20,000 nucleotides of DNA. Source: an uncultured virus (IMG/VR IMGVR_UViG_3300008113_011532) (Duplodnaviria > Heunggongvirae > Uroviricota > Caudoviricetes). The notes under the pieces are model-generated. The model worked only from the letters and a program-made list of their open reading frames with translations. It was not told the origin of the DNA and did no database searches. The position numbers and the translations under genes were made by a program. Location of the stretch: the IMG/VR virus record IMGVR_UViG_3300008113_011532; one strand, given 5' to 3'. Shown here in pieces: positions 1,664 to 19,923 of this stretch (its first letter is position 1; every line of letters starts with the position of its first letter).

Positions 1664-2023
1664 ATGGACTCGAAACAAAGAATAGAAAGATGGGACTGCG
1701 TGGCGGTCGTATGCACGGCACCTTTCGAGGGCCTTCAAAAAGGATACACATACAGGGTAAACGGATCCGGCTGGCTCGACAACAACTCGGCCACCGAAAA
1801 GAAGGGCTGGGGAGTATGCCTGGAGGACGAATGGGTGGGCCTGATTGACGAAGACGGCAAATTCATAAAAGGTGGCTGGAAGAAGATGAGAAACAAGCCT
1901 TACTCCGAAAGGGTGAGATGGGTCTACGCGACTCTGCAAGAGCTAGAAGAGCACTTCATAACAGACCAAGAGAACTACGAGATACACGTGAGAGACGAAA
2001 GGCTAAAATCGCTGGGCATATGA
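1664..2023 (+). CDS. hypothetical protein with C-terminal RDERLKSLGI tag
   Basis: ORF track; ends ATA TGA overlapping the next ATG; 'VVC...LQKGYTYRV' resembles the next two ORFs. Confidence 0.8.
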   Translation: MDSKQRIERWDCVAVVCTAPFEGLQKGYTYRVNGSGWLDNNSATEKKGWGVCLEDEWVGLIDEDGKFIKGGWKKMRNKPYSERVRWVYATLQELEEHFITDQENYEIHVRDERLKSLGI

Positions 2024-2283
2024 AAGTGGTCTGCGCGAACCTGGGAGAGGATTTGGGATACGAAACCCACAACGAGGCGATTACAATCGGAAAGACGTAC
2101 CATGTCCATTCACAATGGCAGACATACGATTTAATTCGTTTGAAGGATGGACGTGCAACCGTAGAGAACGTCATATTGTATTCGATAATCAACGACGAAG
2201 GCAAAAGCGTAAAATACAACAAGAGGCTCTTCGTTAACCGCGATGAATGGAGGAATAAAAGAATAAACGAGCTAGGAATATGA
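2020..2283 (+). CDS. small beta-rich hypothetical protein (87 aa) with C-terminal RNKRINELGI tag
   Basis: ATG 2020 overlaps TGA 2021-2023; MKVVC...ITIGKTYHV...YSIINDEGKSVKY. Confidence 0.8.
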   Translation: MKVVCANLGEDLGYETHNEAITIGKTYHVHSQWQTYDLIRLKDGRATVENVILYSIINDEGKSVKYNKRLFVNRDEWRNKRINELGI

Positions 2284-2534
2284 GAGTGATGTGCATAAAG
2301 AACGAGGACGTAATGCGCATCTTCGGCACCCTTCCGCTCACACCAGGAAAGGTGTAAGAGGTAATCGCCTTTATGGAAATACCGTTCTCCGCGAACAGAC
2401 CACTCGACTCCAGAGACACCGTTTACACCGTGATCAACGACGAGGGCGAGGCGAGAATCTACTCTGCCGACATACTCAGAAGGCTCAGCAAGCAAGAGGA
2501 AAGAGAGCTAAGGCTTAAAAAGATAGGGATATAA
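2280..2534 (+). pseudogene. paralog of 2020-2283 with in-frame TAA at 2355-2357; C-terminal RELRLKKIGI tag
   Basis: Translation from ATG 2280: MRVMCIKNEDVMRIFGTLPLTPGKV*EVIAF...YTVINDEGEARIY...EERELRLKKIGI*. The stop sits where the paralog has Tyr (GKTYHV). Confidence 0.8.
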
Positions 2535-2538
2535 TCAC

Positions 2539-2546
2539 TATATTTA
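2539..2546 (+). promoter_or_regulatory. possible Bacteroidota-type -7 element (TATATTTA)
   Basis: Intergenic, upstream of an A-rich leader and ATG 2568. Confidence 0.4.
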
Positions 2547-2567
2547 GAACAACCAAAACCAAACGAC

Positions 2568-2999
2568 ATGAAGATTGACGGACAAAGACTACTATCGTCG
2601 CAAGACGCGCACCCGCTGAAGATGCAGACATGGATTGTCTCATTCTCGACAGACGAGGCAGAGGACCAAGCAGACGTGTTCGGCGTCAGGCTAGCGGACA
2701 TACCGAAAAGGCCAAACGCAATAAAAGGCGAGCCGGATCTCGTCTCGTGCAAGATCACCTTCATACTCGATATGAAAAAAGAAGCGATAACGTTCGAGAG
2801 GCTACAGTTCGGATGCGACGTATACGGCGAGAACCCGGTCGCGGAGGCGGACGATGAGAAGATAGGCCAATGGCTACCGATGAAGAAGATAGCGTTCAGG
2901 AAATACGAGATAAACGAGGAGCTGGTCGAGGGCACATACCCGAGGAACGCCATCGTCGACGCGCTCAAGCAGACAATGTTCAAATCTGGCAGACTATGA
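2568..2999 (+). CDS. hypothetical protein (143 aa)
   Basis: ORF track; A-rich leader; ATGA overlap with the next gene. Confidence 0.75.
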   Translation: MKIDGQRLLSSQDAHPLKMQTWIVSFSTDEAEDQADVFGVRLADIPKRPNAIKGEPDLVSCKITFILDMKKEAITFERLQFGCDVYGENPVAEADDEKIGQWLPMKKIAFRKYEINEELVEGTYPRNAIVDALKQTMFKSGRL

Positions 3000-3373
3000 G
3001 ATACAACGACAGGAACTTCTCAAAGTTCCAGGAAAGGCAGAGGAACGGAGACGAACTGGAAAACTGGTTAAGAGTAAGCGAGAGAAAGATACGAAGGGAA
3101 AGAGACCACAGGCACGCCACCTTCTACATGCAGTGCCTCACCAAATTCTTCGAGAAGGAATGGTGGCTGGCGCTCGAGACGAGGGACAAAGAGCAAGTGT
3201 ACACATCTTACTACAACCAGGAGGAGATGCGGAAGGAGGAAGACGATGCACATATGTGGTCAAACTTCGAGTGGTTCGACACATGGGACGAGTGGAGGCA
3301 GCACATCCTCGACACGGTAAAGCCAAACAAGGCAAAGCTAAGAGAGCTCAGGGTCAAGAAGCTGGGACTTTAA
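2996..3373 (+). CDS. hypothetical protein (125 aa) with C-terminal RELRVKKLGL tag
   Basis: ATG 2996 overlaps TGA 2997-2999; MRYNDRNF... Confidence 0.8.
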   Translation: MRYNDRNFSKFQERQRNGDELENWLRVSERKIRRERDHRHATFYMQCLTKFFEKEWWLALETRDKEQVYTSYYNQEEMRKEEDDAHMWSNFEWFDTWDEWRQHILDTVKPNKAKLRELRVKKLGL

Positions 3374-3403
3374 ACTTCGTTCGAAACCTGCCGTATAAAA
3401 AGC

Positions 3404-4138
3404 ATGAACACAGAAGACAAACTCAAGGCGATCTGTAACTATAGTCACAAAGATATGGCTACACCGTCAGCGCAGATGATAAGTTACATAGACTTCGAGA
3501 CATACGACACACAGAAGAAGAAACAAGCCAAGCGAAACCTGCTCATAAACGAGCTACTGGACATCGAGGAGGAGAGTAACTACTCCGATTCAGAAATAAA
3601 TCTGGACTCGAAGTATGATGTTACTGCACCGAAGGTGATGCAAACAGCCGTACAAGGTAACAGACACACATCAGTAGACTACGGAAAGGATCTACTACTC
3701 AATGACGTAATAACAAAGTTGGTCACGGACACCACAACGCCGGACCCGATGTTACCGAAACTCACGCTTAGCACCGACGACACAAAGCCACACTTCGAGA
3801 ACATGCAGACTATGGCTAGACGGATTATTACACGAATAATGCACGCCAACAACAAGATTGCAATAGAAGGAAGAATAGGTCCAGGTAATGCAATACTACT
3901 ATCACCAAAGACCGAATTCGATTTACAAAATGTGGACATCGACCAGTATATGACCGGATTTACGATAACCAGAGTAGTAGACCAAAGGATACCAGACGGA
4001 AGGATAATAGTTTGCCGTGGCGGAAATCCGACAGATGCAGGCCTTATAGCTATGACAACACAGACTTACTCATATATGCACGCAACAGACAAATACCTGT
4101 CACAGTATGCTTGGTTCGAAATAGATTTACAATACTGA
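3404..4138 (+). CDS. hypothetical protein with a C-terminal region resembling part of T4-like major capsid protein gp23
   Basis: 'IITRIMHANNKIAIEGRIGPGNAILLSP' and 'VVDQRIPDGRIIVCRGGNPTDAGLIAM' recall the gp23 segments 'AN.IA..TRRG.GN.II.S' and 'V..D......VGYKG....DAGL'. Internal KRNLLINELL is tag-like. Confidence 0.55.
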   Translation: MNTEDKLKAICNYSHKDMATPSAQMISYIDFETYDTQKKKQAKRNLLINELLDIEEESNYSDSEINLDSKYDVTAPKVMQTAVQGNRHTSVDYGKDLLLNDVITKLVTDTTTPDPMLPKLTLSTDDTKPHFENMQTMARRIITRIMHANNKIAIEGRIGPGNAILLSPKTEFDLQNVDIDQYMTGFTITRVVDQRIPDGRIIVCRGGNPTDAGLIAMTTQTYSYMHATDKYLSQYAWFEIDLQY

Positions 4139-5852: not shown

Positions 5853-5856
5853 AGTG

Positions 5857-6474
5857 ATGAGATACGTATTGACCTTCGAGAAGTTCGACAAAGTCGCCTT
5901 CCACGGATACCAGATGACGCCGCAGGACATGCGCCTGCCCGACTGCGAAGTGGAATGGAAAGGGCCCGACCAAGAGACCGGGTGTCCGATGTTCTCGAAC
6001 GAGAAGAGGATAACACAGGAGGATCTCGAGAAGGCAATCACTTTCCTTAACGAGGAAGACGTAAGGACAATCATAGGATACTCAAGAGGCGGCGCGATAC
6101 TTCTGAGCGCACTCGCCAGCGGCGCGAGGATACCAGAAGAGATTTATCTCGTAGCACCGGCGTGGGCAAGGCAGTGGGCCGACATAAAGCCGATGCCTAT
6201 AAGAAAGAAGGGCTGCATAATACACGGCGGGCTTGACGACAAGGTTCCGTTGAGGCACTCCGCCATCCTGGCCAAGTCGACAGGGCTGCCGCTGTACGTA
6301 TTTCCTGACCGCAACCACGTCAACATACTCAAGCACAAAGACGACACGACCGGCGGAATAATGGTGAACCACCTAGACGAGGCAATCTCTAGCCTTCCCG
6401 ACTGGGGCAAGTCCGACACCGGAAGCAAGGAGCAGATCAAGCAGCAACGAGACTGGTGCTCGCGGCTGGGCTAG
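5857..6474 (+). CDS. alpha/beta hydrolase with N-terminal MRYVLTFEKF tag
   Basis: Nucleophile elbow 'IIGYSRGGA', acid 'IIHGGLDDKVP', His in 'RNHV'. Confidence 0.85.
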   Translation: MRYVLTFEKFDKVAFHGYQMTPQDMRLPDCEVEWKGPDQETGCPMFSNEKRITQEDLEKAITFLNEEDVRTIIGYSRGGAILLSALASGARIPEEIYLVAPAWARQWADIKPMPIRKKGCIIHGGLDDKVPLRHSAILAKSTGLPLYVFPDRNHVNILKHKDDTTGGIMVNHLDEAISSLPDWGKSDTGSKEQIKQQRDWCSRLG

Positions 6475-6509
6475 ATCCCGAGCTCTTCCAGCTTGCCTTT
6501 CCTGTTCAT
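6471..6509 (-). CDS. 12-aa tag-only mini-ORF or gene remnant MNRKGKLEELGI
   Basis: Minus strand reads ATG AAC AGG AAA GGC AAG CTG GAA GAG CTC GGG ATC TAG; frame is open 5 more codons upstream (LKTKS), then TAA. Confidence 0.5.
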   Translation of the reverse strand: MNRKGKLEELGI

Positions 6510-6520: not shown

Positions 6521-6766
6521 TCAGTTATTCATTTCAGATTCTATTGTGTTTGCCCCACCATGAGAATAACAAGCCAATGTTTCTTCACGTTCAAAATCCT
6601 TTGCAGTTACTTGCTCACATTCTTCTAATGATTTGCAAAGTTTTGAATCTCCATTAATAGTAACTACAAACCCTCTTTTAGTTTGTGTTCCATTTGAGTT
6701 TAAAAACATCATGCCAGCCCCAAGTTGCTTAGAGTTGTATTCTTTTACTGTTTGGATAGTTTTCAT
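6521..6766 (-). CDS. AT-rich hypothetical protein (81 aa, MKTIQTVKEYN...)
   Basis: ATG 6766 follows an A-rich leader and TATATTCG promoter; composition is distinctly AT-rich. Confidence 0.7.
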   Translation of the reverse strand: MKTIQTVKEYNSKQLGAGMMFLNSNGTQTKRGFVVTINGDSKLCKSLEECEQVTAKDFEREETLACYSHGGANTIESEMNN

Positions 6767-6791
6767 AACCTTTATTTTTGTTTTTTTTCGA

Positions 6792-6799
6792 CGAATATA
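6792..6799 (-). promoter_or_regulatory. Bacteroidota-type -7 element (TATATTCG)
   Basis: Reverse complement of cgaatata; upstream of ORF 6766-6521. Confidence 0.55.
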
Positions 6800-6838
6800 A
6801 CAAAAATACCGCAGAAACATATAAAGAACAAAGCTAAT

Positions 6839-7072
6839 ATGGCAAAAAACATGGCGAACACCTTCATTCCACCCGGACAGGCAACCATTGGTAATATCCA
6901 ACCCGACGCGATAGTAGCCAACGGCAAGTGCGTCCTCGGAAACCTCGTGCTCCACGACAGGAAGACCGGCAAGGAGTGGGAGATATTCATAGAGGACGGC
7001 GTCATCTACGCCGAGCCATGGGACAAGGAAGAGCGCCGCGACCACCGCATCGGTAAAGTGCTTGGTGAATAG
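6839..7072 (+). CDS. hypothetical protein (77 aa) with variant C-terminal tag RRDHRIGKVLGE
   Basis: ATG 6839 after an A-rich leader. Confidence 0.7.
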   Translation: MAKNMANTFIPPGQATIGNIQPDAIVANGKCVLGNLVLHDRKTGKEWEIFIEDGVIYAEPWDKEERRDHRIGKVLGE

Positions 7073-7084
7073 GATTTCTTTCGC

Positions 7085-7092
7085 TACCTTCG
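7085..7092 (+). promoter_or_regulatory. Bacteroidota-type -7 element (TACCTTCG)
   Basis: Intergenic; identical octamer at 12630-12637. Confidence 0.6.
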
Positions 7093-7108
7093 TAGAAAAT
7101 ATACTATT

Positions 7109-7582
7109 ATGAACGACGTCGAAGAAATCTACCAGTGCCTTCTCGAGAAGACATACCAGGACGCTATCCAGCTTGACATACTAATATCGAAAGTCTCCGA
7201 CAGAGACCTCATACTCGGCTTCTTGGTCGACCTGGCGATCAGGCACGAGGAGTACGAGTCGGACGAGGAGACAATAAAAGCCGCGATCGCGAACCTCACC
7301 GACAGCGACGGATTGGATCCCGTCTACGCCACCGAGTGCCACACGAGGTACATAGATCTTCTAAAGACGAAGAACGAGGAGAGCTTGGAGATAAACAAAT
7401 TCTCAATCGACACGCTATTCCTACTACTCGCGGAGGACACAGAAGGATACGAGACGACCGTCAACGCCTGCAACAACACCAAGGCACTTGATAAGCTCAA
7501 GGAGCAGCTGCTGGACGCCGAGGTCTACGAGAACATCGCGATAATCGACAAAAGAATAAAAGAGATAGAAGATGGACGATAA
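7109..7582 (+). CDS. acidic helical protein with C-terminal UVR (UvrB/UvrC)-like motif
   Basis: 'LKEQLLDAEVYENIAIIDKRIKEIE'. Confidence 0.65.
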   Translation: MNDVEEIYQCLLEKTYQDAIQLDILISKVSDRDLILGFLVDLAIRHEEYESDEETIKAAIANLTDSDGLDPVYATECHTRYIDLLKTKNEESLEINKFSIDTLFLLLAEDTEGYETTVNACNNTKALDKLKEQLLDAEVYENIAIIDKRIKEIEDGR

Positions 7583-7778
7583 GAAGTTCAGGCAGGCGCT
7601 AGACGAGATATCGGCGGGCCTGCTCACCGTAAAGTACACAGGCGACGCGTCGGACATCGGCAACGAGTTCGGCATACTAATCGGAAAGTTCCTCGACGGC
7701 GAGATGGGCTGGGACAAAGACGCGGTCATATCCGGCGTCAAGCACGGCATCTCACTAACCGACGGTACTCATGGATAG
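7572..7778 (+). CDS. small hypothetical protein (68 aa)
   Basis: Short overlaps with both neighbours; typical codon usage. Confidence 0.7.
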   Translation: MDDKKFRQALDEISAGLLTVKYTGDASDIGNEFGILIGKFLDGEMGWDKDAVISGVKHGISLTDGTHG

Positions 7779-8052
7779 CCTTCAGAAGGAGGCGCTGATG
7801 CGCAGCGCACAACAGATAATCGACGAGAATACAGCATTCGGTGGCAGCATCGTGACCGACGCCACGCCACAAGGGAATCACGAAAAGGCTTTCGACAAAA
7901 TGGGAAAGACCGACATAGTATGGGCGAACGTCTGGATCAATAACGAGGCACAACCCCACGATTATGCCATAACCGGCTGGAGATACCTGAAGAACCTGAA
8001 CGAATTGATTAAAGAGCACCGCGAGGAAAGAATGAAAGAGCTAGGGATATGA
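7771..8052 (+). CDS. hypothetical protein with C-terminal REERMKELGI tag
   Basis: ORF track; ATATGA coupling. Confidence 0.8.
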   Translation: MDSLQKEALMRSAQQIIDENTAFGGSIVTDATPQGNHEKAFDKMGKTDIVWANVWINNEAQPHDYAITGWRYLKNLNELIKEHREERMKELGI

Positions 8053-8390
8053 TGGAAATCATGGAAGTACTTAAAGTAAAGTTTTTAAAGCCTGGTGATT
8101 ATATATCAACTGCCGGCGAAGAAATTATAGAGCGAGATATTGATTTTGAATATTTATTGAAAATAATCAGTGATATAGAAACTCAAAAAGCTGGCTTTGG
8201 CAAAAGCCTACACAAGGAAGCTTTTACAGGAGTAGACTATCTTGGCAATTTAGTTAAGTTTTCTTCTTATGTTATTTGGACAGATAATAATAAAATCTAT
8301 AAGTATAACTTTGATGAAAATTGGATGCCCTTTGATGATGAGTTACTAAGAAGAAATAGAGAAGAACGGCTTAAAGTGCTAGGGATATGA
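8049..8390 (+). CDS. AT-rich hypothetical protein with C-terminal REERLKVLGI tag
   Basis: ORF track; ATATGA at both ends. Confidence 0.8.
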   Translation: MMEIMEVLKVKFLKPGDYISTAGEEIIERDIDFEYLLKIISDIETQKAGFGKSLHKEAFTGVDYLGNLVKFSSYVIWTDNNKIYKYNFDENWMPFDDELLRRNREERLKVLGI

Positions 8391-8626
8391 ACGAGACGAT
8401 GATATCGAAGCACGACATGATTGACGTCGACGGGGTCTGGCTGCTTAAGGCCGGAAGGACATACGAGACATCGGACTGCCCGACAACACACACACCCAAC
8501 CTTGAGATAGGACCAAAACTCGTCATCGTCACCTGCGAGGACGGCAAAGACAGGATACGACAAAAATCGGACTTCAAGCACATTTACGAGCACAGAGAAG
8601 AAAGGCTTAAGGAGATTGGAATATGA
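8387..8626 (+). CDS. hypothetical protein with C-terminal REERLKEIGI tag
   Basis: 'LKAGRTYE...IVTCEDGK' weakly resembles the 2020/2280 family. Confidence 0.8.
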   Translation: MNETMISKHDMIDVDGVWLLKAGRTYETSDCPTTHTPNLEIGPKLVIVTCEDGKDRIRQKSDFKHIYEHREERLKEIGI

Positions 8627-8910
8627 TTAAAAAGAGGGAACAAGGTTCGTATTATCATAGTCTGATGACAAAAGATATGCAAGAGGAATGGCTACAGGAA
8701 TTCAATAGGTCATATCATGTGAAACAGGGAACAAGTTTAGAAACATTTTTTACTTGGTGGCGTCATGACTTCCAAGATTTCATTTCGGGCTCGTTTAACT
8801 GGAATGAGAAGAAGAGAGGAATCGAATGGTGGGAAGACTATGCCAATACCGACGAATCTACAATATTGGCATGGAAGAGAGATGAAACGTTAAAAAATCT
8901 CGGAATATGA
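8623..8910 (+). CDS. Trp-rich hypothetical protein with C-terminal RDETLKNLGI tag
   Basis: ORF track; ATATGA coupling. Confidence 0.8.
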   Translation: MIKKREQGSYYHSLMTKDMQEEWLQEFNRSYHVKQGTSLETFFTWWRHDFQDFISGSFNWNEKKRGIEWWEDYANTDESTILAWKRDETLKNLGI

Positions 8911-8945
8911 GAAAAGAACAAACAATCGATGTACTAGGAATATGA
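8907..8945 (+). CDS. 12-aa tag-only mini-ORF MRKEQTIDVLGI
   Basis: ATG AGA AAA GAA CAA ACA ATC GAT GTA CTA GGA ATA TGA; coupled by ATGA overlaps on both sides. Confidence 0.6.
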   Translation: MRKEQTIDVLGI

Positions 8946-9226
8946 AACACATACTTAACCTCATACGAAACAGCGCCATCTACATCACAATCACGAACCT
9001 GGTGGATGTATACCGAGCAGCGACACACAGGCACGACTGGGTGTACTCGAGCCAAGAAGAGGAAATAGCCTTTGGAAACCAGAGACACCGTATAAAGCTG
9101 AACTTCAAAACAAGATACTGTAATAAGTGCGGCACAAAGGAAAGAAAAATACGCGAGACTTGGGCTCCGTGCTCACTCACAAAAGAAGAGCAAAGAGACA
9201 AGAAACTTAGTGACCTGGGCATATGA
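8942..9226 (+). CDS. putative Zn-binding small protein with C-terminal RDKKLSDLGI tag
   Basis: 'HRHDW ... RYCNKCG'. Confidence 0.8.
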   Translation: MKHILNLIRNSAIYITITNLVDVYRAATHRHDWVYSSQEEEIAFGNQRHRIKLNFKTRYCNKCGTKERKIRETWAPCSLTKEEQRDKKLSDLGI

Positions 9227-9242: not shown

Positions 9243-9563
9243 CTAGATGCCGAGCTCGTCGAGCTTCCTGTCCCTCTCCTCGGTCAAGACCCACAGCATA
9301 GACTCGTGACCGGCCTCTGCCTCCTCCCAGGTGCAGTACCTCTGCTGAAGACCGTCGCGCGGACCGCCGAAGACCATCGTCTCGAAAAGTATAGGCCTGC
9401 CAAGCTCGTCACTGCCGTGCTCCATCGCGAGGAAGACCGTAGACAACTCCACGCCGTTGTGCTTAGCACGGCCTACGCTCAATCCCATATATTTGGAAAG
9501 GACCGCAAAGTCATCGCACGGCACTGCCCGCCTTTCATCGTCCAGTTTGTAGTAGCCAATCAT
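9243..9563 (-). CDS. conserved-looking phage hypothetical protein with C-terminal RDRKLDELGI tag
   Basis: 'STVFL...H...P.LFETMVFGG...RY.TWEEAEAGH'; TACATTTG 4 nt upstream. Confidence 0.85.
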   Translation of the reverse strand: MIGYYKLDDERRAVPCDDFAVLSKYMGLSVGRAKHNGVELSTVFLAMEHGSDELGRPILFETMVFGGPRDGLQQRYCTWEEAEAGHESMLWVLTEERDRKLDELGI

Positions 9564-12641: not shown

Positions 12642-13058
12642 ATGGACAAGGAAAGACTAGAACAGATGATGCTCAGGCTGCAGATGGCAGTGATTGAGAT
12701 TGGAAGAGGCGAAGGCTTCGACATAAGACTATCGGAACCCGATCAACTATTCTCGGGAAGCCAGAACACACTCATCGCCAAGATGACAATCACCGAGACA
12801 AAACCGGAAGACCACATAGCCAACGAAGCGCTTTGCAGGAAGGTCGGCTTCACACAGAACGTAATCGGCCAGTCGTTCACGCAGAACGGATCGCTCTACC
12901 GTATCGTCAACATAAAGACCAGGAACAGAAAGTACCCCGTGATCGCCTCTTCCAGACTGGGAGGGCTGTACAAGTTCTCCGTCGCGACCGTGAAGAGGAA
13001 CCTCGGCGGCGACCAGCTCATAAACAGAAACGCGAACCTAGACAAACTCATATCATGA
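12642..13058 (+). CDS. hypothetical protein with variant C-terminal tag RNANLDKLIS
   Basis: ORF track; 'GQSF...YRIVNIKTRNRKYPV...YKF'. Confidence 0.8.
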   Translation: MDKERLEQMMLRLQMAVIEIGRGEGFDIRLSEPDQLFSGSQNTLIAKMTITETKPEDHIANEALCRKVGFTQNVIGQSFTQNGSLYRIVNIKTRNRKYPVIASSRLGGLYKFSVATVKRNLGGDQLINRNANLDKLIS

Positions 13059-13501
13059 CAATAGCAATAGTGGCGCTCGCGCTGACGACGCTCATATTCG
13101 GTATCTACATCATACACCTACACTCGAAGCTGTCGGACGCGATAGCGGACAAGAACAACGCAGAGACGCTCACGGCAGCGATGAAGAAAAAGACGACCGT
13201 CGAGGTGTCGCCAGGCGACACGGGACTAATACACAACTACGAACTTCAACACAATGGGAAGGATGGAGAAAAGTATGTATTTAGTGTAGACTTCGAGGTG
13301 AGCATAATCGAGATATCCGAGAAGCGACTCAAGGTGAGCGCCATCGACTACACGACCAACGACGCATGGGCGAAGGACTCTACAAAGAGGCAGGGGATAA
13401 TCAACTTCTTCCAGAACCAATGGGTTAAAAGAGACGAGGTAGAGATAATCTTCGACGACAGGAAGCGCAGGAACGACAAACTAAACGAACTTGGAATATG
13501 A
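13055..13501 (+). CDS. membrane-anchored hypothetical protein with C-terminal RNDKLNELGI tag
   Basis: ATG 13055 in ATGA overlap; hydrophobic N-terminus MTIAIVALALTTLIFGIYII. Confidence 0.8.
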   Translation: MTIAIVALALTTLIFGIYIIHLHSKLSDAIADKNNAETLTAAMKKKTTVEVSPGDTGLIHNYELQHNGKDGEKYVFSVDFEVSIIEISEKRLKVSAIDYTTNDAWAKDSTKRQGIINFFQNQWVKRDEVEIIFDDRKRRNDKLNELGI

Positions 13502-14418: not shown

Positions 14419-15095
14419 TGAACGAAGTAAGAATATTTTTCGACCTAGACGGCGTGCTCGCCGACATGGAGGGAGGGCTGAGACAGAACCCAATCATACT
14501 AGAGCTCAGGGCGGTCGTGGACGAGCTGATCGACACGAAGTTCAACGACTACAAAGGCCTCGTGGACGACGACATCAAGACGAAGTTCAAGGCAGAGCTC
14601 GAAGCAAACCCGGAAAGCCCGGTGAAGGAACTCAAGAAAGCGTTCCAGAAGTACACATCGAAGGTGTTCAGCATCGCGGCCAAGCCAGGCTTCTACAGGA
14701 ACCTGCCACTAATGCCGGGCGCACAGGAGATGGTGAAGAAGGCGGCCGAGCTGACCGGCAAGCTACCTAACATACTCTCTGCGCCGGTAGGCGACGAGAA
14801 CGACGCAAACAACCCTTCAGTAATAGAGAAGAGAGAGTGGGTCGAGGAGCACTTCGGCGGAATGGTCGGTGATGTAATCATCACAATCGACAAAGGCAGC
14901 GTCGTTGAGAGCAAGAACGACATCCTTATAGACGACAGGCCAAAGTACGTCGAGAAGTTCACGAGCGCCGGAGGAACCGCGATACTGCACACCGACTACA
15001 GGAAGAGCATCGCAGAGCTGGAGAGCATACTGTCAGGAATGCAGACCAACGAGAGAAGGTTCGTGAAGACATACGAAAGCTTCACCAAGAAATAA
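14418..15095 (+). CDS. HAD-family 5'(3')-deoxyribonucleotidase-like protein
   Basis: Motif I 'FFDLDGVLAD', 'FYRNLPLMPGA', 'ILSAP', 'K..WV..HF', 'ILIDDRPK'. Ends RFVKTYESFTKK. Confidence 0.9.
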   Translation: MNEVRIFFDLDGVLADMEGGLRQNPIILELRAVVDELIDTKFNDYKGLVDDDIKTKFKAELEANPESPVKELKKAFQKYTSKVFSIAAKPGFYRNLPLMPGAQEMVKKAAELTGKLPNILSAPVGDENDANNPSVIEKREWVEEHFGGMVGDVIITIDKGSVVESKNDILIDDRPKYVEKFTSAGGTAILHTDYRKSIAELESILSGMQTNERRFVKTYESFTKK

Positions 15096-15123: not shown

Positions 15124-16767
15124 TTATCTCTCGACGACCCTAACGTACCTCGGAGAGGTGAAGTTAGGGTTCTTGATAGAAAGCGCGTACAGAAGCATGT
15201 TTGACACTATGTCGTCAATCGCGCGATCCTTACCGGAGTCGTGCGAGTCGATGACAGCCAGGGCCCTTATGACCTGCATGGACTGAACCTTCGAGATAAG
15301 CTTTCTCTTTCGGCTCTCGCCCTCGGTGGACCTGCCCCTGGTGTCCGGTATAACCTCGACCGTCATGTCCCTCTCCATCGACTTCACGTCGGCGTTGAGC
15401 GTAGCGAGAAGCTCCTCGAGATCTTCCTCGTCCAGCATTCCAAGCTCGGCGTAGGTGTTTATCGGCTCGTCCTCTACGTAGTCGCGCACCTTTCCGTAAA
15501 GCGGCGACTCCTCTATGAACCTCTTCATCCAAGCCAGAGAAATCTTGCCCTGCCTTGCCCACTTGCCGTCAATCTCTCCGTCGACGTTCACGTTCTGGTT
15601 CGTGTTGGGCGAGTCGATCGAAAGGTTGCGAGGCGTCTCTATAACCTCACCGTCGTGCAACCACGTGGACATCGTCACAATCTTCGTGCCTATTCCCCTG
15701 CCGAGCTCGCCGGAAACCCTAAGCTTCCTGACCTCGAACTCCGGCAGCTCCATATCCTCGACAGCGTTGACGACGATGAACGTGTCCTCGTCCGCCGGTC
15801 CGGACCTCTTCAGCGAGATAGGTATCAGCACACGCTCGTCGAACATCGAGTTCAGCGCGGTGTTGAACTCCAGTATGTCGCCGCAAGAGTCAATCGACGC
15901 AACGACGTCGGCAATCCTTTCACGCTCGACCATGTAGACGTCGGCAGGGTTGAACTTCGACATGTCGACCGAGAAACCGGCCTCCCTGTTTATCTGGTTG
16001 TACTTCGATATGACCTTCGCAGGTATCGAGTCGGTACCCTTTGATGATATGTGGTAAATCACGTACGACCTGCCAGAGGCTATAAGAGGTAGTCTCTGGT
16101 CCTTCAGCCTCACGCTGAACTTGGCAAGCAGGTTGGGAACCTTCGCGAACGTAGCGACCCACGCAGGATCGGAAACGTAGTAGTCTATGATCTCGTCGTC
16201 CATCAAGAAGTTCGGCGAGACGTTGACCTCGCATGTCTCGACGCCAGTCGCCACGAACCTCTTGTTTTGGCCCATCTCCTTCGATATGTACTGCATCACC
16301 TTCTTTATCACATCGGCGTCATTCGGCAGGTCGACGCCATCGGCTATCCTCTTTGCGAGGAAAAGTGCCTGTATTGACTCGTGCTCCCTGATTCTCCTTC
16401 CGGAACCCGACGAACCGAAGTCCGTGGTCTTCTTGAAGTCTGTAAGCTTATAGACGCTGCCGTCGTCCTCGTCCTTGAAGACCTTGGTCGCCCGGCTGTT
16501 CTTCCTGAGGTAGTCGCTGGCCTTCTCTACGTCGAACTTCCCCTCGTCGTCCGTGATGTTACCGATAGCGGTGTCGACGTCAGTCCAATCCCCGTCGACG
16601 TCCGGATCTTTCATCTTCTCGATGTCGACCTTGCGACCGTTGTTTAGCTCTATGTCGTCGTTGGCCCTCAGCTTGGCGACGAGAACATCACCCCTTTTCC
16701 TTGTACCAAGGTCGTCGACCTTCAGGTTGTTCTCGAAGAACCTCGCCCATCCCTTAATCCTGTTCAT
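15124..16767 (-). CDS. 547-aa protein, putative PD-(D/E)xK restriction-endonuclease-like, with N-terminal MNRIKGWARFFE tag
   Basis: 'HESIQALF ... FNPADVYM ... LIPISLK' fits an E...PxD...SLK nuclease-like core. Confidence 0.6.
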   Translation of the reverse strand: MNRIKGWARFFENNLKVDDLGTRKRGDVLVAKLRANDDIELNNGRKVDIEKMKDPDVDGDWTDVDTAIGNITDDEGKFDVEKASDYLRKNSRATKVFKDEDDGSVYKLTDFKKTTDFGSSGSGRRIREHESIQALFLAKRIADGVDLPNDADVIKKVMQYISKEMGQNKRFVATGVETCEVNVSPNFLMDDEIIDYYVSDPAWVATFAKVPNLLAKFSVRLKDQRLPLIASGRSYVIYHISSKGTDSIPAKVISKYNQINREAGFSVDMSKFNPADVYMVERERIADVVASIDSCGDILEFNTALNSMFDERVLIPISLKRSGPADEDTFIVVNAVEDMELPEFEVRKLRVSGELGRGIGTKIVTMSTWLHDGEVIETPRNLSIDSPNTNQNVNVDGEIDGKWARQGKISLAWMKRFIEESPLYGKVRDYVEDEPINTYAELGMLDEEDLEELLATLNADVKSMERDMTVEVIPDTRGRSTEGESRKRKLISKVQSMQVIRALAVIDSHDSGKDRAIDDIVSNMLLYALSIKNPNFTSPRYVRVVER

Positions 16768-17082: not shown

Positions 17083-18009
17083 ATGGGAAGCTTTTACCTT
17101 ACGTGCTCCATATCGCACATGACATTAGATCGCCAAAAGACGAGCGTACAAATCCTAATACCGAAGATGAAGTACGACGGCTGCACCGACATGAAAGAGC
17201 ACAGGAACCTTATCTGCACCAACGACGGCGCGCAGGCGTTCTTCGCACCGTTCGGGTTTCCAATCCACGGCGAATACTACGACTACGGATACATCGACGA
17301 AATCCAGAGAGACAGGAACGTGGAGCAAATCGAGGAGTTCTTCGGCGCGAAGATCGATGACATAATAAAACACATCGGCAGAACACGCGACTGGACACCT
17401 CCAAAGAACGCGGAGCTCTACGAAGAGATTTACATGACGTTCTTCCGCACAGAGGTCCTCGAGTTCCTGCAGAGGGGATGGGACACAGTAAACCTGACCG
17501 ACCCGTATGATTACTCGGGCGACGCCTGGCTGAAGAAGTTCATAGACCTCGCCACAAAAGCGCCGTCCAGAGAGCAGATAGCGGAGGTGAACGAGAAGAG
17601 TTCAAGAGGCGAGGAGCTGACCGAGGACGAGTACGAAATCATGTTCCACTCGGATTACCAAGTCTTCGGATCGAGCAACTGCTACATAAAGTCCTCAATG
17701 GACAGGAACTTCCTGAGGCTGCTCGGAGTGGACTTCGAGGCGCAGCTGAACGACGTTCTTAAGCAGTCGACCTTCCTTACAAGGTTCGGATGGGGGCTAG
17801 ACAGGGTACTACTGCCTTCGGTCTACGGATCGCAGGAAACCAACTTCCAGGAGACCTACCTGCTCAACGACCTCGTGAACGACCTGCTCATCAAGGACAT
17901 GGAAAACGAGTACGACGACTACGACGAGGAAGAAGGCGAAAACTCGCAGAAAGCGAGGATCATTAAGGCTCACAACAGAAACAAGGCGATAAGAGAACTC
18001 GGGGTTTAG
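17083..18009 (+). CDS. hypothetical phage protein (308 aa) with C-terminal RNKAIRELGV tag
   Basis: ATG 17083 after an A-rich leader; 'MGSFYLTCSIS...PIHGEYYDYG'. The upstream extension to 16894 overlaps the structured RNA. Confidence 0.8.
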   Translation: MGSFYLTCSISHMTLDRQKTSVQILIPKMKYDGCTDMKEHRNLICTNDGAQAFFAPFGFPIHGEYYDYGYIDEIQRDRNVEQIEEFFGAKIDDIIKHIGRTRDWTPPKNAELYEEIYMTFFRTEVLEFLQRGWDTVNLTDPYDYSGDAWLKKFIDLATKAPSREQIAEVNEKSSRGEELTEDEYEIMFHSDYQVFGSSNCYIKSSMDRNFLRLLGVDFEAQLNDVLKQSTFLTRFGWGLDRVLLPSVYGSQETNFQETYLLNDLVNDLLIKDMENEYDDYDEEEGENSQKARIIKAHNRNKAIRELGV

Positions 18010-18497
18010 CCGATCTGCGACGGATCGAAGTTGTCGCGCATGTCCAGGAAGGTGAACTGGTCGACCGCGACACGAATTCCGTCGAACCGGTTGAGGAAGG
18101 CGACGAACTCATTCAGGCATTCGTCCTCCAACGCAAAGACCGTGTTGGAAGGATCGGTCTTTGATCCGTAGGACGTGTACTCGATGACGCCGACCTTGGA
18201 TGGCGCCTCTATGTAGAACTCGCAGGCCATCGCATCACCCCACGTGACGTCGATGTCCATTCTCATATTCGGATTCTGCGAGAAGTAAAAGTCGAACTCG
18301 AGCGTCTCAGGAACGCCGAACTCATCATTCGAGTTCTCATAGGTGACCTGCACCATGTCGGAGTGCATCATCACGTTTCCAATCGTGAACTCGTGAACGC
18401 CGTCCTTCAGCACGGTCATTTTTTTCGGCATAAGCGTCCGCCAGTCAACATCATAAATCAGACTCTCAAAAAGACGCCAAGAATAAATCCTTCTCAT
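18006..18497 (-). CDS. hypothetical protein with N-terminal MRRIYSWRLFES tag
   Basis: ORF track; TTATATATA 4 nt upstream. Confidence 0.8.
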   Translation of the reverse strand: MRRIYSWRLFESLIYDVDWRTLMPKKMTVLKDGVHEFTIGNVMMHSDMVQVTYENSNDEFGVPETLEFDFYFSQNPNMRMDIDVTWGDAMACEFYIEAPSKVGVIEYTSYGSKTDPSNTVFALEDECLNEFVAFLNRFDGIRVAVDQFTFLDMRDNFDPSQIG

Positions 18498-18501: not shown

Positions 18502-18510
18502 TATATATAA
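18502..18510 (-). promoter_or_regulatory. putative phage late promoter TTATATATA
   Basis: 4 nt before ATG 18497. Confidence 0.6.
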
Positions 18511-18521
18511 ACATTTCTCAC

Positions 18522-18529
18522 TATATTCG
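18522..18529 (+). promoter_or_regulatory. Bacteroidota-type -7 element (TATATTCG)
   Basis: 4 nt before ATG 18534. Confidence 0.6.
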
Positions 18530-18533
18530 CGTT

Positions 18534-19256
18534 ATGGACATAAAGAAAAGGCTAGACGAATACCTCGGCTTCGACTCAAACGAGCTCCTGAGGCCGAGAA
18601 ACATAATAGTGGACGGAATACTCAGGCCAGTGGCGAAGTTCCGCCAGGCGGTCGGAGAACCGCTAATACGCGTCTTCGGCGGCGCCGTCAGAGACTCGAT
18701 CGCGGACCAGAAGATACACGACATCGACCTGCTAATCGGATCAAAGATGCTGAACACCGTAGAGGCGGTGCTACACAAGCACGGGTACGTATACATGGAG
18801 AGCCTGACACCGAAGGACATCGGCGCGATGTACAAAGACCTGAGGATAATAAACGAGCCAAGGACGTGGCTGAACACCAAGAACATGGCCATCGTACAGA
18901 TAATAAGACCGGTCGGTTTCACGGCGTCGAACCCAATCGCAGCAGTCGTACAGAACGTGGACATCTCCTGCTGCGGCGTCAGCTGGGACGGTGAGAAGCT
19001 CTACGAGAACTTCCCAGACGCGGTCATGCACTGCCAGACCATGAGGTACAGCACGAACTACTCCGGCAAGATGCGGACCGACAGGACGACCAACAGGACC
19101 TGGAAGCTCGAACAGCGCGGTTGGAAACTAATCAGGGGACCCCACGAGGTGCGTGACCTAAGGATTGAGGCGGTGCTCTGCATGCCGTCTATCGAGTTCG
19201 TGGAGGAGCACGGCAAGGAGCACATAATAATGGACAACGACGAACTACCGTTTTAA
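18534..19256 (+). CDS. nucleotidyltransferase (poly(A) polymerase/CCA-adding enzyme head-like)
   Basis: 'VFGGAVRDSI...DIDLLI' and 'VDISCC'; acidic tail DNDELPF. Confidence 0.8.
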   Translation: MDIKKRLDEYLGFDSNELLRPRNIIVDGILRPVAKFRQAVGEPLIRVFGGAVRDSIADQKIHDIDLLIGSKMLNTVEAVLHKHGYVYMESLTPKDIGAMYKDLRIINEPRTWLNTKNMAIVQIIRPVGFTASNPIAAVVQNVDISCCGVSWDGEKLYENFPDAVMHCQTMRYSTNYSGKMRTDRTTNRTWKLEQRGWKLIRGPHEVRDLRIEAVLCMPSIEFVEEHGKEHIIMDNDELPF

Positions 19257-19261
19257 ATAAC

Positions 19262-19269
19262 TATATTTG
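19262..19269 (+). promoter_or_regulatory. Bacteroidota consensus -7 element (TATATTTG)
   Basis: Exact TAnnTTTG, 3 nt before ATG 19273. Confidence 0.65.
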
Positions 19270-19272
19270 AGA

Positions 19273-19923
19273 ATGACATCGCACGACCTATACTACCCGA
19301 ACGTCGGACAAAGGCTGACCATCACAGACGAGCAGCTCGCCGAGATACGCGCAGCGGCTTCAACGGTGGTGCCGAGCGCCTACTACCGACACATGGTCAT
19401 ATGGGAAACTCCGCTGTGGAAGGAGATACAGATGCTGGCCATCACTGCAAGGCCGAAGCAGTGGGTAATCGACAAATACGCGGATAACATAGACCTTCAC
19501 CTGAAGCTTCTTTCAACCATGTACATCGACGAGGACGAGGACGAAGACCGCTGCATGATGGGAAGGAAAAGGCCGTTCGGCAACTCCGACGTACTCGGCG
19601 ACGTGCTGGAGGCTATGTACGAGGCCGGAACCATACCAACGCCAATCGACGAGGACGGCAACCAAATCGACATAATAGACGAGGACGCCGCAGACAGTAT
19701 GTTGGAGGAGTTCACAAACTTCGTACGCGACTTCTTCAGCGACGGCTTCGTACCGACCACGAACGTGTTCATCGGCGTCGGCCACGTAGACATAACCAAC
19801 TCAGGAAAGTCAATGATGGAATGGGAGAGCATCGGGGTAAAGCCCGAGCACGCCTATCTGATGTCGTGGATGCCTGACAAGGCAGCATTCAGGGACCTCA
19901 AGCTAAAAGAACTAGGGATATGA
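19273..19923 (+). CDS. acidic hypothetical protein (216 aa) with C-terminal RDLKLKELGI tag
   Basis: ORF track (ATG 19273 preferred over TTG 19267). Confidence 0.8.
   Translation: MTSHDLYYPNVGQRLTITDEQLAEIRAAASTVVPSAYYRHMVIWETPLWKEIQMLAITARPKQWVIDKYADNIDLHLKLLSTMYIDEDEDEDRCMMGRKRPFGNSDVLGDVLEAMYEAGTIPTPIDEDGNQIDIIDEDAADSMLEEFTNFVRDFFSDGFVPTTNVFIGVGHVDITNSGKSMMEWESIGVKPEHAYLMSWMPDKAAFRDLKLKELGI

What the first reader, a model, noticed from the sequence alone, without database searches (positions are those of the whole stretch)
1664..19923. A shared C-terminal peptide tag (R-[DEN]-x-[KR]-[LI]-x-x-[LI]-G-I-stop) on about 17 unrelated proteins
Seen: ORFs ending at 2023 (RDERLKSLGI), 2283 (RNKRINELGI), 2534 (RELRLKKIGI), 3373 (RELRVKKLGL), 6471- (RKGKLEELGI), 8052 (REERMKELGI), 8390 (REERLKVLGI), 8626 (REERLKEIGI), 8910 (RDETLKNLGI), 8945 (KEQTIDVLGI), 9226 (RDKKLSDLGI), 9243- (RDRKLDELGI), 13501 (RNDKLNELGI), 18009 (RNKAIRELGV) and 19923 (RDLKLKELGI), plus variants at 7072 and 13058. 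Tag-like internal copies occur in ORFs 3404, 13498 and 18534. The protein bodies are mostly unrelated (12-308 aa; soluble, membrane-anchored, Zn-binding). Synonymous codons vary freely (Arg AGA/AGG/CGC, Leu CTA/CTG/CTC/CTT, Gly GGA/GGC/GGG), so selection appears to act on the peptide rather than on a DNA repeat. Inference: an amphipathic helical docking signal read by one common partner, such as a protease or adaptor (degron), a phage hub or compartment protein, or a host machine. I do not know of a described function for it.
Basis: partly seen in the sequence, partly recalled or inferred. Interest (0 to 1): 0.92.

Follow-up and report, generated by a model that had tools for sequence, protein, structure and literature searches.

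The report
Shared tail tag on phage proteins
Many small, otherwise unrelated proteins of this giant freshwater phage end in the same ten-residue helix, a portable label kept by selection on the protein, whose reader is still unknown.

Summary
In the six-frame translation, 15 stop-adjacent matches to R-[DENK]-x-[KRTA]-[LIMV]-x-x-[LIV]-G-[ILV] occur, none internal, and none in 200 shuffles. Fourteen of 35 window genes carry the tag.

Selection acts on the peptide. Against orthologues in the closest relative (a 344-kb IMG/VR contig, G007), synonymous divergence is the same in tag and body (0.52 vs 0.54). Non-synonymous divergence is halved in the tag (0.078 vs 0.150).

The tag is portable. It sits on 83 BLAST-unrelated bodies. 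It is added to a widespread domain in only 12 of its 120 best homologues. AlphaFold2 predicts a terminal helix in two different folds.

Giant phages and unrelated 29-32-kb phages use it, and I found no shared candidate reader gene. It is almost absent from 596 Gb of bacterial genomes.

New here: the tag plus an ATGA stop/start overlap forms a standard cassette junction.

Best reading: a docking label for one common partner, possibly a Clp-type protease. The partner is unidentified. The scan met this tag before on other DNA. I found no paper on it.

The parts
1991..2023 (+). tag RDERLKSLGI + stop of gene 1664-2023; ATGA overlap with gene 2020-2283
2251..2283 (+). tag RNKRINELGI + stop of gene 2020-2283
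2502..2534 (+). tag RELRLKKIGI + stop (TAA) of ORF 2373-2534, possibly the end of a frameshifted paralogue that starts at 2280
3341..3373 (+). tag RELRVKKLGL + stop of gene 2996-3373
6471..6509 (-). 12-residue tag-only ORF MNRKGKLEELGI, 11 nt after the stop of minus-strand gene 6521-6763
6751..6832 (.). two divergent Bacteroidota-type promoter-like matches (TTTG-N17-23-TAnnTTTG) ahead of the array 6842-9226
   Evidence: 2 matches, 0.32 expected, 4 of 200 shuffles reach 2; the consensus itself is recalled, not from a call
7040..7072 (+). variant tag RDHRIGKVLGE + stop of gene 6842-7072
   Evidence: orthologue in G007
8020..8052 (+). tag REERMKELGI + stop of gene 7771-8052; left junction of the inserted cassette
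8053..8390 (+). cassette B (rest of gene 8049-8390 with its tag REERLKVLGI). It is present here between genes that are adjacent in G007, and its orthologue lies 27 kb away in G007
8594..8626 (+). tag REERLKEIGI + stop of gene 8387-8626
8878..8910 (+). tag RDETLKNLGI + stop of gene 8623-8910
8907..8945 (+). 12-residue tag-only ORF MRKEQTIDVLGI with an ATGA overlap on both sides; identical in G007
9194..9226 (+). tag RDKKLSDLGI + stop of gene 8942-9226; its last codons are part of a hairpin plus T-run (9212-9233)
9243..9275 (-). tag RDRKLDELGI + stop of gene 9243-9563(-); no downstream gene; codons G/C-ending like the bulk
13026..13058 (+). variant tag RNANLDKLIS + stop of gene 12642-13058; ATGA overlap with the next gene
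13469..13501 (+). tag RNDKLNELGI + stop of gene 13055-13501 (N-terminal hydrophobic stretch)
17977..18009 (+). tag RNKAIRELGV + stop of gene 17083-18009 (308 aa, the largest carrier)
19891..19923 (+). tag RDLKLKELGI + stop of gene 19267-19923; all 26 homologues found keep it

Best explanation
The tag is a portable C-terminal label made of a short amphipathic helix that ends in a Gly cap. Its consensus is R-[DEN]-x-[KR]-[LI]-x-[EKD]-[LI]-G-[ILV]-COOH. This phage lineage attaches it to its small accessory proteins. Those proteins are probably made early.

Shown:
- The peptide, not the DNA, is what selection keeps.
- The tag is added to otherwise unrelated bodies.
- It is confined to phages.
- Its coding sequence plus the ATGA stop/start overlap forms a standard junction between gene cassettes.

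Inferred:
- The exposed helix docks all carriers onto one common partner acting in trans.
- That partner is probably encoded by the host, or belongs to a machine found in both host and giant phage.
- My favoured sub-reading, at about 0.2 on its own, is a common lifetime label: an AAA+ protease of the Clp type removes the tagged proteins. The giant tag users encode their own ClpP, and four of them an N-domain-less ClpA/C-like unfoldase.

For: 1. Non-random and strictly terminal.
- The window has 15 terminal and 0 internal matches, with 0 terminal in 200 shuffles.
- In G007 the core motif occurs 21.8 times per 1000 positions in the last 16 residues, against 0.114 internally.
- Across the window, G007, G001, G002, G004 and G006, no protein has it in its first 16 residues. 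It occurs in 3 of 4360 random internal 16-mers.

2. Selection on the peptide.
- Nine window/G007 orthologue pairs give tag pS 0.52 and pN 0.078, against body pS 0.54 and pN 0.150.
- Fisher tests give p = 0.79 for pS and p = 0.002 for pN.
- Paralogous tags have pS 0.72.
- Tags with no downstream gene keep the peptide while using bulk-type G/C-ending codons.

3. Portable.
- 103 carriers fall into 83 BLAST clusters once the tail is removed.
- The family of 9243-9563 has 1115 homologues. Only 12 of the best 120 carry the tag, and 2 of those 12 have a different linker.
- All 26 homologues of 19267-19923, down to 50% identity, keep it at the exact end.

4. Structure. AlphaFold2 predicts a terminal helix followed by G-I in a beta-rich 106-residue fold (pLDDT 93, tag about 84) and in an alpha/beta 216-residue fold (pLDDT 82.6).

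5. Used by unrelated phages with no shared reader gene.
- G007 has 89 carriers among 511 genes.
- T4-type giants G001, G009, W02 and W03 use it.
- Three 29-32-kb phages that are 93-100% complete carry 4-6 tags each.
- BLAST finds nothing common to all of them except fibre-like and methylase proteins.

6. Not a host tail. One strict DNA pattern gives 83 matches in IMG/VR, and 78 of them end frames that are open for the full 70 codons examined. The same pattern gives 28 stretches in 596 Gb of bacterial genomes. Only 3 of those both start with Arg and end a frame of 70 codons or more, and 2 of the 3 lie on one 4.2-kb phage-like contig.

7. Carriers look like accessory proteins.
- Their median length is 97 aa, against 182 aa for other genes.
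- 55 of the 89 lie in the last 64 kb of G007.
- 1 of 86 has a Pfam hit, and 10 of 86 have a PHROG hit, mostly of unknown function.

8. Clp lead.
- ClpP is present in all 6 giant tag users tested.
- G007, G009, W02 and W03 encode a 706-719-residue two-ring unfoldase. In the G007 copy, the only one whose sequence I read, there is a VGF loop and no N-domain.
Against: - No partner was found, and nothing shows binding.
- The Clp link is not specific. Lak-B1 has ClpP and a ClpX-sized ATPase, and the 735-kb phage has an unfoldase, yet both have no tags or a single one. The small tag users that were checked lack these genes (G002 has no ClpP, G004 no unfoldase; G006 was not checked). No unfoldase was found in G001.
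- The giants share ancestry, so their co-occurrence with ClpP counts for little.
- 26 of 89 G007 tags have 0 or 2-6 residues after the core instead of 1, and G001 tails end in charged residues. A degron that is read through a free hydrophobic carboxyl end therefore fits poorly.
- The tag is tied to ATGA overlap: 32 of 89 tagged genes against 20 of 170 other small genes (odds ratio 4.2, p = 8e-6). A reader in trans does not predict this.
- Timing rests on two promoter-like matches in the window. The same motif is not enriched in G007.
Confidence: 0.45

Rival explanations
1. The tag is a cis-acting junction element. The tag codons plus ATGA form a standard connector that couples translation of the next gene in a host that lacks Shine-Dalgarno initiation. 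The peptide is constrained because the nascent chain acts in the ribosome at termination.
For: - ATGA overlap is 4.2-fold enriched among tagged genes.
- 59 of 83 IMG/VR matches end in ATATGA, although these genomes are AT-rich.
- Third-position A is 35 of 72 in tags followed by an overlapping gene, against 14 of 54 in those without one (p = 0.011).
- 63 of 89 G007 tags sit at one fixed distance from the stop.
- Selection on the peptide fits a nascent-chain role as well as it fits a docking role.
Against: - 19 of 89 tagged G007 genes are followed by a gene on the other strand, and 3 more by a gap over 60 nt.
- In the window, 9226, 9243(-), 18009 and 6471(-) have no downstream cistron yet keep the peptide.
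- 26 of 89 tags are out of register with the stop.
- About ninety stalling peptides in one genome would be costly (inference).
Confidence: 0.15
2. There is no external reader. The helix either makes carriers associate with themselves or with each other, as a half of a SHOCT/DUF6576-like bihelical C-terminal module, or it simply caps and stabilises fast-evolving small proteins.
For: - The same phages carry DUF6576 C-terminal modules: 3 proteins in G001 and 1 look-alike in G007 found by a motif pattern.
- hhalign places the tag in register on the first helix and Gly turn of that module (10 columns).
- L-x-x-L-G-I is the pattern of a Gly-capped helix end (textbook knowledge, recalled).
- No reader gene is shared between the phage groups.
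Against: - The hhalign probability is only 5%.
- hmmscan of 13 window tails against Pfam at E up to 10 gives no DUF6576 or SHOCT hit.
- An invariant Arg and a near-invariant acid/base pattern are more than a cap needs.
- A two-turn helix is short for a stable interface (inference).
Confidence: 0.15
3. The tag is a cargo-loading peptide. It loads carriers into the capsid for delivery into the next cell, like the encapsulin cargo peptide or the T4 capsid-targeting sequence.
For: - It is one short terminal tag on many unrelated proteins.
- Encapsulin cargo peptides are C-terminal and Gly- and Leu-rich (recalled).
Against: - Carriers sit in arrays of small accessory genes, away from the head genes, and in the window behind a host-type promoter.
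- The small phages and the T4-type giants share no detectable capsid protein, yet they use one tag.
- No protease site follows or precedes the tag.
- No virion proteome exists for any tag user: no tags were found in the cultured PTm1 or Nonlabens phage P12024L.
Confidence: 0.08
4. The carriers are one old paralogous family in which only the C-terminus is still recognisable, so the tag is not a portable label.
For: - Some carriers form tandem paralogue groups. The largest G007 cluster has 5 members.
- Several small carriers share a loose 'DEG-x-x-x-Y ... F' pattern before the tag (by eye).
Against: - The carriers form 83 clusters.
- Two different predicted folds carry the tag.
- 108 of the 120 best homologues of one carrier have no tag.
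- Carriers range from 12 to 308 residues.
Confidence: 0.05
5. The conserved unit is a DNA or RNA repeat, such as a recombination site or a regulatory RNA, and the peptide is a by-product.
For: - Cassette B is inserted exactly at the junction GGN-ATA-TGA relative to G007.
- Contigs from other samples join different neighbours at 8040 and 8053.
Against: - Synonymous divergence in the tag equals that of the body and is saturated among paralogous tags.
- Leu, Arg and Gly codons vary freely.
- The tag is kept across genomes of 24-51% G+C.
Confidence: 0.02

Closest known systems
ssrA-type and other C-terminal degrons of ClpXP/ClpAP, and the SspB XB tether (recalled knowledge)
   Same: A tag of about ten residues at the very C-terminus. 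It works whatever the body is, and one AAA+ machine reads it. The giant tag users encode ClpP and, in four cases, a ClpA/C-like unfoldase.
   Different: The tag is encoded in the genes, not added by tmRNA. It is a charged helix with an invariant Arg rather than a non-polar end. It does not always sit at the extreme end. Degradation was not tested.
Capsid-targeting sequence of T4 internal proteins (recalled; named by earlier scan notes)
   Same: A short shared terminal peptide on unrelated phage proteins that is read by one phage structure.
   Different: The T4 sequence is N-terminal, is cut off by the prohead protease, and sits on late virion proteins. Here the tag is C-terminal, has no cleavage motif, and sits on accessory-gene arrays.
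Encapsulin cargo-loading peptides (recalled)
   Same: A C-terminal, short, Gly/Leu-containing tag on unrelated cargo that is read by an HK97-fold shell.
   Different: The encapsulin peptide is extended, not helical. Cargo genes lie next to the shell gene. Here nothing shows that carriers are in the virion.
Sliding-clamp-binding C-terminal tails (T4/RB69 gp43, gp55, gp33; bacterial QLxLF; recalled)
   Same: A hydrophobic x-x-L-hydrophobic core at the extreme C-terminus of several proteins. One G001 tail (…KIDDLFDGFDFD) resembles the RB69 polymerase tail as I recall it.
   Different: The clamp motif has no invariant Arg. The number of carriers (89 in one genome) is far beyond any known set of clamp clients. 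The small tag users share no detectable protein family with the giants beyond fibre-like and methylase proteins, so a phage clamp common to both groups is unlikely.
DUF6576 / SHOCT short C-terminal bihelical modules (Pfam PF20216, PF09851)
   Same: A portable C-terminal module on unrelated proteins, present in the same phages. The stretch K-I-x-x-hydrophobic-G-I aligns in register with the tag.
   Different: The tag would be only the first helix. No Pfam hit was found. hhalign probability is 5%.
Conserved gene-boundary sequences of mosaic phages (lambdoid boundary sequences, T4-type PeSL cassettes; recalled)
   Same: Accessory genes move as cassettes, and the breakpoints fall at a conserved junction.
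   Different: Those junctions are non-coding DNA motifs. Here the junction is coding and is conserved as a peptide.

Membership tests
C-terminal degron of a Clp-type AAA+ protease | The tag is sufficient to make an unrelated protein unstable, and this depends on the protease | not testable with these tools
   Needs reporter fusions in wild-type and clp mutant hosts
C-terminal degron of a Clp-type AAA+ protease | The tag lies at the free C-terminus with a non-polar end | tested here: inconclusive
   The window's 13 carriers of the strict tag, and both tag-only ORFs, end in G-[ILV]. In G007, 63 of 89 tags have one residue after the core; across all 89, 51 tails are a single I, L or V, and 26 tags are in another register. 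G001 tails often end in charged residues
C-terminal degron of a Clp-type AAA+ protease | A cognate protease is present wherever the tag is used | tested here: inconclusive
   ClpP is in 6 of 6 giant tag users. It is also in Lak-B1, which has no tags, and it is absent from the small tag user G002. Host genomes are unknown
T4-type capsid-targeting sequence | An N-terminal leader that ends in a prohead-protease site | tested here: not met
   The tag is C-terminal. Across the six genomes and the window, no protein has it in the first 16 residues
Encapsulin-type cargo peptide | The carrier is encoded next to the shell gene and is found inside the particle | tested here: inconclusive
   Carriers cluster in accessory arrays, not by the head genes. 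No particle proteome is available
Clamp-binding tail | A match to QLxLF or to the T4-type (S/T)LDFL(F/Y) consensus (recalled) | tested here: not met
   The consensus of 89 G007 tags is R-[EDN]-x-[KR]-[LI]-x-[EK]-[LI]-[GL]. It has no Gln and no aromatic pair
DUF6576 / SHOCT | A significant profile match to the Pfam model | tested here: not met
   0 of 13 window tails hit at E up to 10. hhalign probability is 5%
DNA/RNA repeat element | Nucleotide conservation beyond what the peptide requires | tested here: not met
   Tag pS is 0.52 against 0.54 in the body. Paralogous tags have pS 0.72
Portable short linear label (general kind) | The same peptide on unrelated bodies, gained independently of the body, under purifying selection | tested here: met

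The most novel reading that the evidence does not exclude
The tag plus ATGA is a standard plug-and-play connector for phage accessory genes, and it works on three levels. As DNA, it lets whole cassettes be inserted, lost and exchanged in frame, even between unrelated phages of the same hosts. As mRNA, it is the A-rich start region of the next gene. As protein, it gives every cassette product the same address: a Clp-type machine, in giant phages their own N-domain-less ClpC-like/ClpP pair, which clears about one sixth of the proteome on a common schedule.
Probability: 0.12. Interest if true: 0.9.

Novelty: new variant of a known kind. Interest (0 to 1): 0.78.

Why it matters
Up to one in six proteins of some of the largest known phages carries this label, and almost all of them are of unknown function.

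It would also show how a phage gives a whole class of proteins a common fate. That fate could be removal, placement or recruitment.

The cassette junction offers a concrete mechanism for how phages shuffle accessory genes without breaking reading frames or translation. The tag is also a ready-made candidate tool, as a portable label, for Bacteroidota genetics.

Tried and rejected
- Co-fold of two unrelated carriers, 9243-9563 and 8387-8626, to test tag-tag pairing: 'no answer', score 0.00 against a mark of 0.32. This is no evidence either way.
- RNA evidence: no RNA holder is listed for window 6800-9300. Only contigs could be laid, so nothing can be said on expression.
- Pfam on 13 window tails at E up to 10: one irrelevant weak hit.
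- ESM Atlas on one tail: no usable hit.
- Foldseek of the 9243-9563 model against the PDB: no match at E up to 0.001.
- Megablast of the window against 50,697 phage records: no match.
- No whole genome is held for the window.
- Looking for a reader as a gene shared by small and giant tag users: none found by BLAST. Remote homologues would be missed.
- Host mimicry: rejected for this exact motif. Looser host motifs were not scanned.
- Link between ClpP or unfoldase and tags: not clean.
- Bacteroidota promoter motif upstream of the tagged arrays of G007: 32 matches against 13-26 in block shuffles, with no enrichment ahead of tagged genes.
- An N-terminal motif as the tag's partner was considered. 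It is rare (9 of 511 in G007), never sits on a tag carrier, and I did not see it among the N-termini of the small phages (read by eye). It was not tested further.
- A suspected frameshift between 2568-2999 and 2870-3373 was rejected. The second gene starts at 2996 with an ATGA overlap (read).
- Literature: 'ELGI' + phage, 0 papers. 'conserved C-terminal motif' / phage / small proteins / Bacteroidetes, 75 papers with the 15 listed titles and abstract openings read, none relevant. 'jumbo phage' / 'C-terminal motif' / 'early proteins' / 'targeting signal', 226 papers with the 12 listed titles and abstract openings read, none relevant. 'Mahaphage', 11 papers. In PMC7162821 I read four passages, and 'C-terminal' occurs 0 times in its main text. 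Its supplements were not seen and could hold protein-family tables that bear on this.

Full report
**What is there.** The window is densely packed with small genes, mostly on the + strand.
- In the six-frame translation the pattern R-[DENK]-x-[KRTA]-[LIMV]-x-x-[LIV]-G-[ILV] occurs 15 times directly before a stop and never elsewhere. 200 Markov-2 shuffles give no terminal match.
- With a slightly wider core (R-x-x-x-hydrophobic-x-x-hydrophobic-[GL] in the last 16 residues), 14 of the 35 genes I accepted carry the tag.
- Two further 'carriers' are 12-residue ORFs that consist of little more than the tag: 8907-8945 and 6471-6509(-).
- One strict match (end 18164, + strand) lies antisense inside another gene and is unexplained.

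**Where the window belongs.**
- No whole genome is held for the window, and no GenBank phage matches it by megablast.
- A scan of IMG/VR with a strict back-translated tag pattern found 83 matches in 72 loci (two matches are listed twice because two loci overlap). 78 of them end frames that are open for the full 70 codons examined.
- One contig, here G007 (344,083 bp, 36.6% G+C, CheckV 91%), is the closest relative. Thirteen blastn segments of 67-89% identity are scattered over it in a different order from the window.
- G007 has 511 genes by my simple greedy caller. 89 of them (17%) carry the core tag and 48 carry the strict LG[ILVM] end.
- G007 carriers have a median length of 97 residues, against 182 for the rest. 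55 of the 89 lie among the 143 genes of the last 64 kb.
- I found no full T4-type capsid gene in G007, so I do not call the window's phage T4-like.
- The window's DNA recurs in freshwater and lake metagenomes of 12 studies.

**Peptide or nucleotides?** Nine orthologous carrier pairs (window against G007) were aligned by codon.

| Region | pS | pN |
|---|---|---|
| Last ten codons (tag) | 0.52 | 0.078 |
| Body | 0.54 | 0.150 |

- The pS values do not differ (p = 0.79), and the pN values do (p = 0.002).
- Among the 14 tags within the window, pS is 0.72, which is saturated. pN is 0.06 at the Arg column, 0.00 at the Gly column and 0.12-0.16 at the last two hydrophobic positions.
- One overlay exists. 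Tags followed by an overlapping gene use A at third positions in 35 of 72 codons, against 14 of 54 for tags with no such gene (p = 0.011). This fits the A-rich start regions reported for Bacteroidota. I saw only the title and abstract opening of PMC6847099, in the listing.

**Portable, not one family.**
- After removal of the last 14 residues, 103 carriers (89 from G007, 14 from the window) fall into 83 BLAST clusters. The window's 14 are all singletons.
- Gene 9243-9563(-) belongs to a family with 1115 homologues. Of the best 120, only the 10 close orthologues and two distant members with a different linker end in the tag. The other 108 stop after the last domain helix.
- All 26 homologues of 19267-19923, down to 50% identity, keep the tag at the exact end.
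- AlphaFold2 predicts the tag as a terminal helix followed by G-I in both proteins. One is a beta-rich 106-residue fold (pLDDT 93; helix 92-103), the other an alpha/beta 216-residue fold (pLDDT 82.6; helix 203-213).
- L-x-x-L-G-I is the pattern of a Gly-capped helix end (textbook knowledge, recalled).
- I could not inspect contacts in the models, so whether the helix is free or packed is not known.

**Who uses it.**

| Phage | Size | Tags found |
|---|---|---|
| G007 | 344 kb | 89 of 511 genes (core) |
| G008 | 172 kb | 41 pattern matches |
| G009 | 476 kb | 21 pattern matches |
| W02 (LR756502.1) | 642 kb | 18 pattern matches |
| W03 (LR745206.1) | 635 kb | 9 pattern matches |
| G001 | 249 kb | 11 of 259 genes, looser tails (…KINELLD, …KIDELLNGK) |
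| G002, G004, G006 | 29-32 kb | 4-6 each |
| Tenacibaculum phage PTm1, Lak-B1 | 225 kb, 548 kb | 0 |
| LR756501.1 | 735 kb | 0-1 |
| Nonlabens phage P12024L | 36 kb | 0 |

- In the pattern scans the reversed-pattern control gave 0-1 matches per genome.
- W02 and W03 are published genomes. The capsid protein of G001 is 72-73% identical to theirs.
- PMC7162821 (four passages read) predicts Bacteroidetes hosts for the genomes above 634 kb.
- The three small phages are 93-100% complete and carry both tail variants, …KLxELG[IL] and …KINEILK. Their terminase is nearest to those of Nonlabens (49%) and Riemerella (43%) phages.
- BLAST finds no protein family common to the small phages and G001 or G007 apart from fibre-like and methylase proteins.
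- The same strict pattern finds only 28 stretches in 596 Gb of bacterial and archaeal genomes. Most of these are short frames or lack a stop. Seven end a frame of 70 codons or more, and three of those start with Arg. Two of the three lie on one 4.2-kb phage-like contig.
- The tag is therefore a phage feature. It does not copy a common host protein tail of this sequence.

**The junction.**
- In G007, 32 of 89 tagged genes overlap the next called gene by ATGA, against 20 of 170 other genes of 150 residues or fewer (odds ratio 4.2, p = 8e-6).
- In IMG/VR, 59 of 83 matches end in ATATGA.
- Relative to G007, window gene B (8049-8390) is an exact one-cassette insertion. Genes A (7771-8052) and C (8387-8626) are adjacent in G007 (A's tag, ATGA, C's start), and B's orthologue lies 27 kb away behind another tagged gene. 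Both window junctions fall at GGN-ATA-TGA.
- Contigs from other samples show different neighbours at the same points. One stops fitting at 8053. Another joins a different tag to B at 8040.
- So each unit, from ATG through body and tag to ATGA, can be gained or lost without disturbing frames or coupling.
- Coupling cannot be the whole story. 19 of 89 tagged G007 genes are followed by a gene on the other strand.
- In the window, the convergent pair 9226(+)/9243(-), and also 18009 and 6471(-), keep the peptide with no cistron downstream.

**Timing and function of carriers.**
- The array 6842-9226 follows two divergent matches to the Bacteroidota promoter consensus (2 found, 0.32 expected, 4 of 200 shuffles reach 2; the consensus is recalled). 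It ends in a hairpin plus T-run.
- This hints at transcription by the host polymerase, that is, early expression. The hint is weak: the motif is not enriched before tagged genes in AT-rich G007.
- Carriers are almost all of unknown function. 0 of 13 window carriers and 1 of 86 G007 carriers have a Pfam hit. 10 of 86 have a PHROG hit, two of them to an acyl-carrier-protein family.

**How it most likely works.**
- Shown: a peptide-level, terminal, helical, portable, phage-specific label that rides on cassette junctions.
- Inferred: a label of this kind, kept on about ninety unrelated proteins in one genome and shared by unrelated phages, is most simply explained by one common partner acting in trans.
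- Because no phage gene is shared by all users, that partner is probably a host machine or a machine found in both host and giant phage.
- The lead I favour is a Clp-type protease, which would make the tag a common lifetime label.
- All six giant tag users encode ClpP.
- G007, G009, W02 and W03 also encode a 706-719-residue two-ring unfoldase. The G007 copy has a VGF ClpP-docking loop and lacks the usual N-domain.
- ClpS is present in G001, G009, W02 and W03.
- The link is not specific. Lak-B1 and the 735-kb phage have Clp parts but no tags or a single one. G002 carries tags without ClpP and G004 without an unfoldase.
- I put 0.45 on 'docking label with a common partner', and about 0.2 of that on the protease version.

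**Rivals.**
- A cis-acting junction or nascent-chain element: 0.15.
- A helix that associates with itself or simply caps, with no reader: 0.15.
- A cargo-loading peptide: 0.08.
- One old paralogous family: 0.05.
- A DNA or RNA repeat: 0.02.

**Known or new.**
- Shared terminal labels are a known kind. Examples are degrons, the T4 capsid-targeting sequence and encapsulin cargo peptides.
- This one fails the defining features of the T4 sequence (wrong end), clamp-binding tails (wrong consensus), DUF6576/SHOCT (no profile match) and DNA repeats.
- I found no paper that describes it.
- Earlier notes of this scan describe the same tag on other giant Bacteroidota phage DNA, and mention its use by 32-kb phages. 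I re-derived these points independently here.

Noticed in passing
window 9595-10047(+), 10017-10511(+), 15124-16767(-), 18006-18497(-), 13888-14418(+), 5854-6474(+); C-terminus of 14418-15095: A second shared peptide, [KR]-[IFY]-[KYLV]-x-[WYF]-x-x-[FY]-E-x-[FN], sits at or near the N-terminus of several unrelated proteins, and once at a C-terminus. With a loose pattern it is about 9-fold enriched in the first 22 residues in G007 (9 of 511 genes) and G001 (6 of 259). It never occurs on a tag carrier.
   Followed up: partly
window 3404-4138(+): A 244-residue protein holds a fragment that resembles a T4-type major capsid protein (Pfam Gp23 E 8.8e-4; 27% identity over 102 residues to the G001 capsid protein, E 5e-6). 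It also has a tag-like R-N-L-L-I-N-E-L-L stretch near its N-terminus. G009 and W02 hold further small ORFs with Gp23-fragment hits.
   Followed up: partly
G007 93802-95922(+) and 243344-244093(-); also G009, W02, W03, G001: The giant relatives encode their own Clp parts: ClpP, a 706-719-residue two-ring ClpA/C-like unfoldase that in G007 has a VGF loop and no N-domain, and in some genomes ClpS.
   Followed up: partly
window 2280-2534(+): ORF 2280-2357 starts like gene 2020-2283 (MRVMCIKNED against MKVVCANLGED), and ORF 2373-2534 ends like it. This looks like a paralogue broken by a frameshift, or a sequencing error.
   Followed up: no
window 18132-18164(+): A strict tag match (RKDRVGRIGL + stop) lies antisense inside gene 18006-18497(-) with no usable start codon. 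It could be chance (rough estimate 0.005 per window) or a relic.
   Followed up: no
window 13498-13746(+), place 13665: This ORF is 82 residues here but 134 in G007. Contigs of two runs carry 37 extra letters at 13665, so the window copy may be a deletion variant.
   Followed up: partly
G001 158498-159124, 164391-164876(-), 218979-219617; G007 113547-114101: DUF6576, a short bihelical C-terminal module, ends three otherwise different G001 proteins. One G007 protein ends in a look-alike found only by a motif pattern, not scanned against Pfam. This is a second portable C-terminal module in these phages.
   Followed up: partly
G007 whole contig: No full T4-type capsid, portal or terminase homologue of G001 was found in this 344-kb, 91%-complete contig by tblastn, and no full capsid by the Gp23 profile. 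Its particle type is open.
   Followed up: partly
window 2-1018(+): The first, 5'-truncated ORF encodes Ig-like repeats and a C-terminal beta-rich domain that reminds me of Bacteroidota surface-protein domains. Only a weak Ig_3 Pfam hit was found.
   Followed up: no
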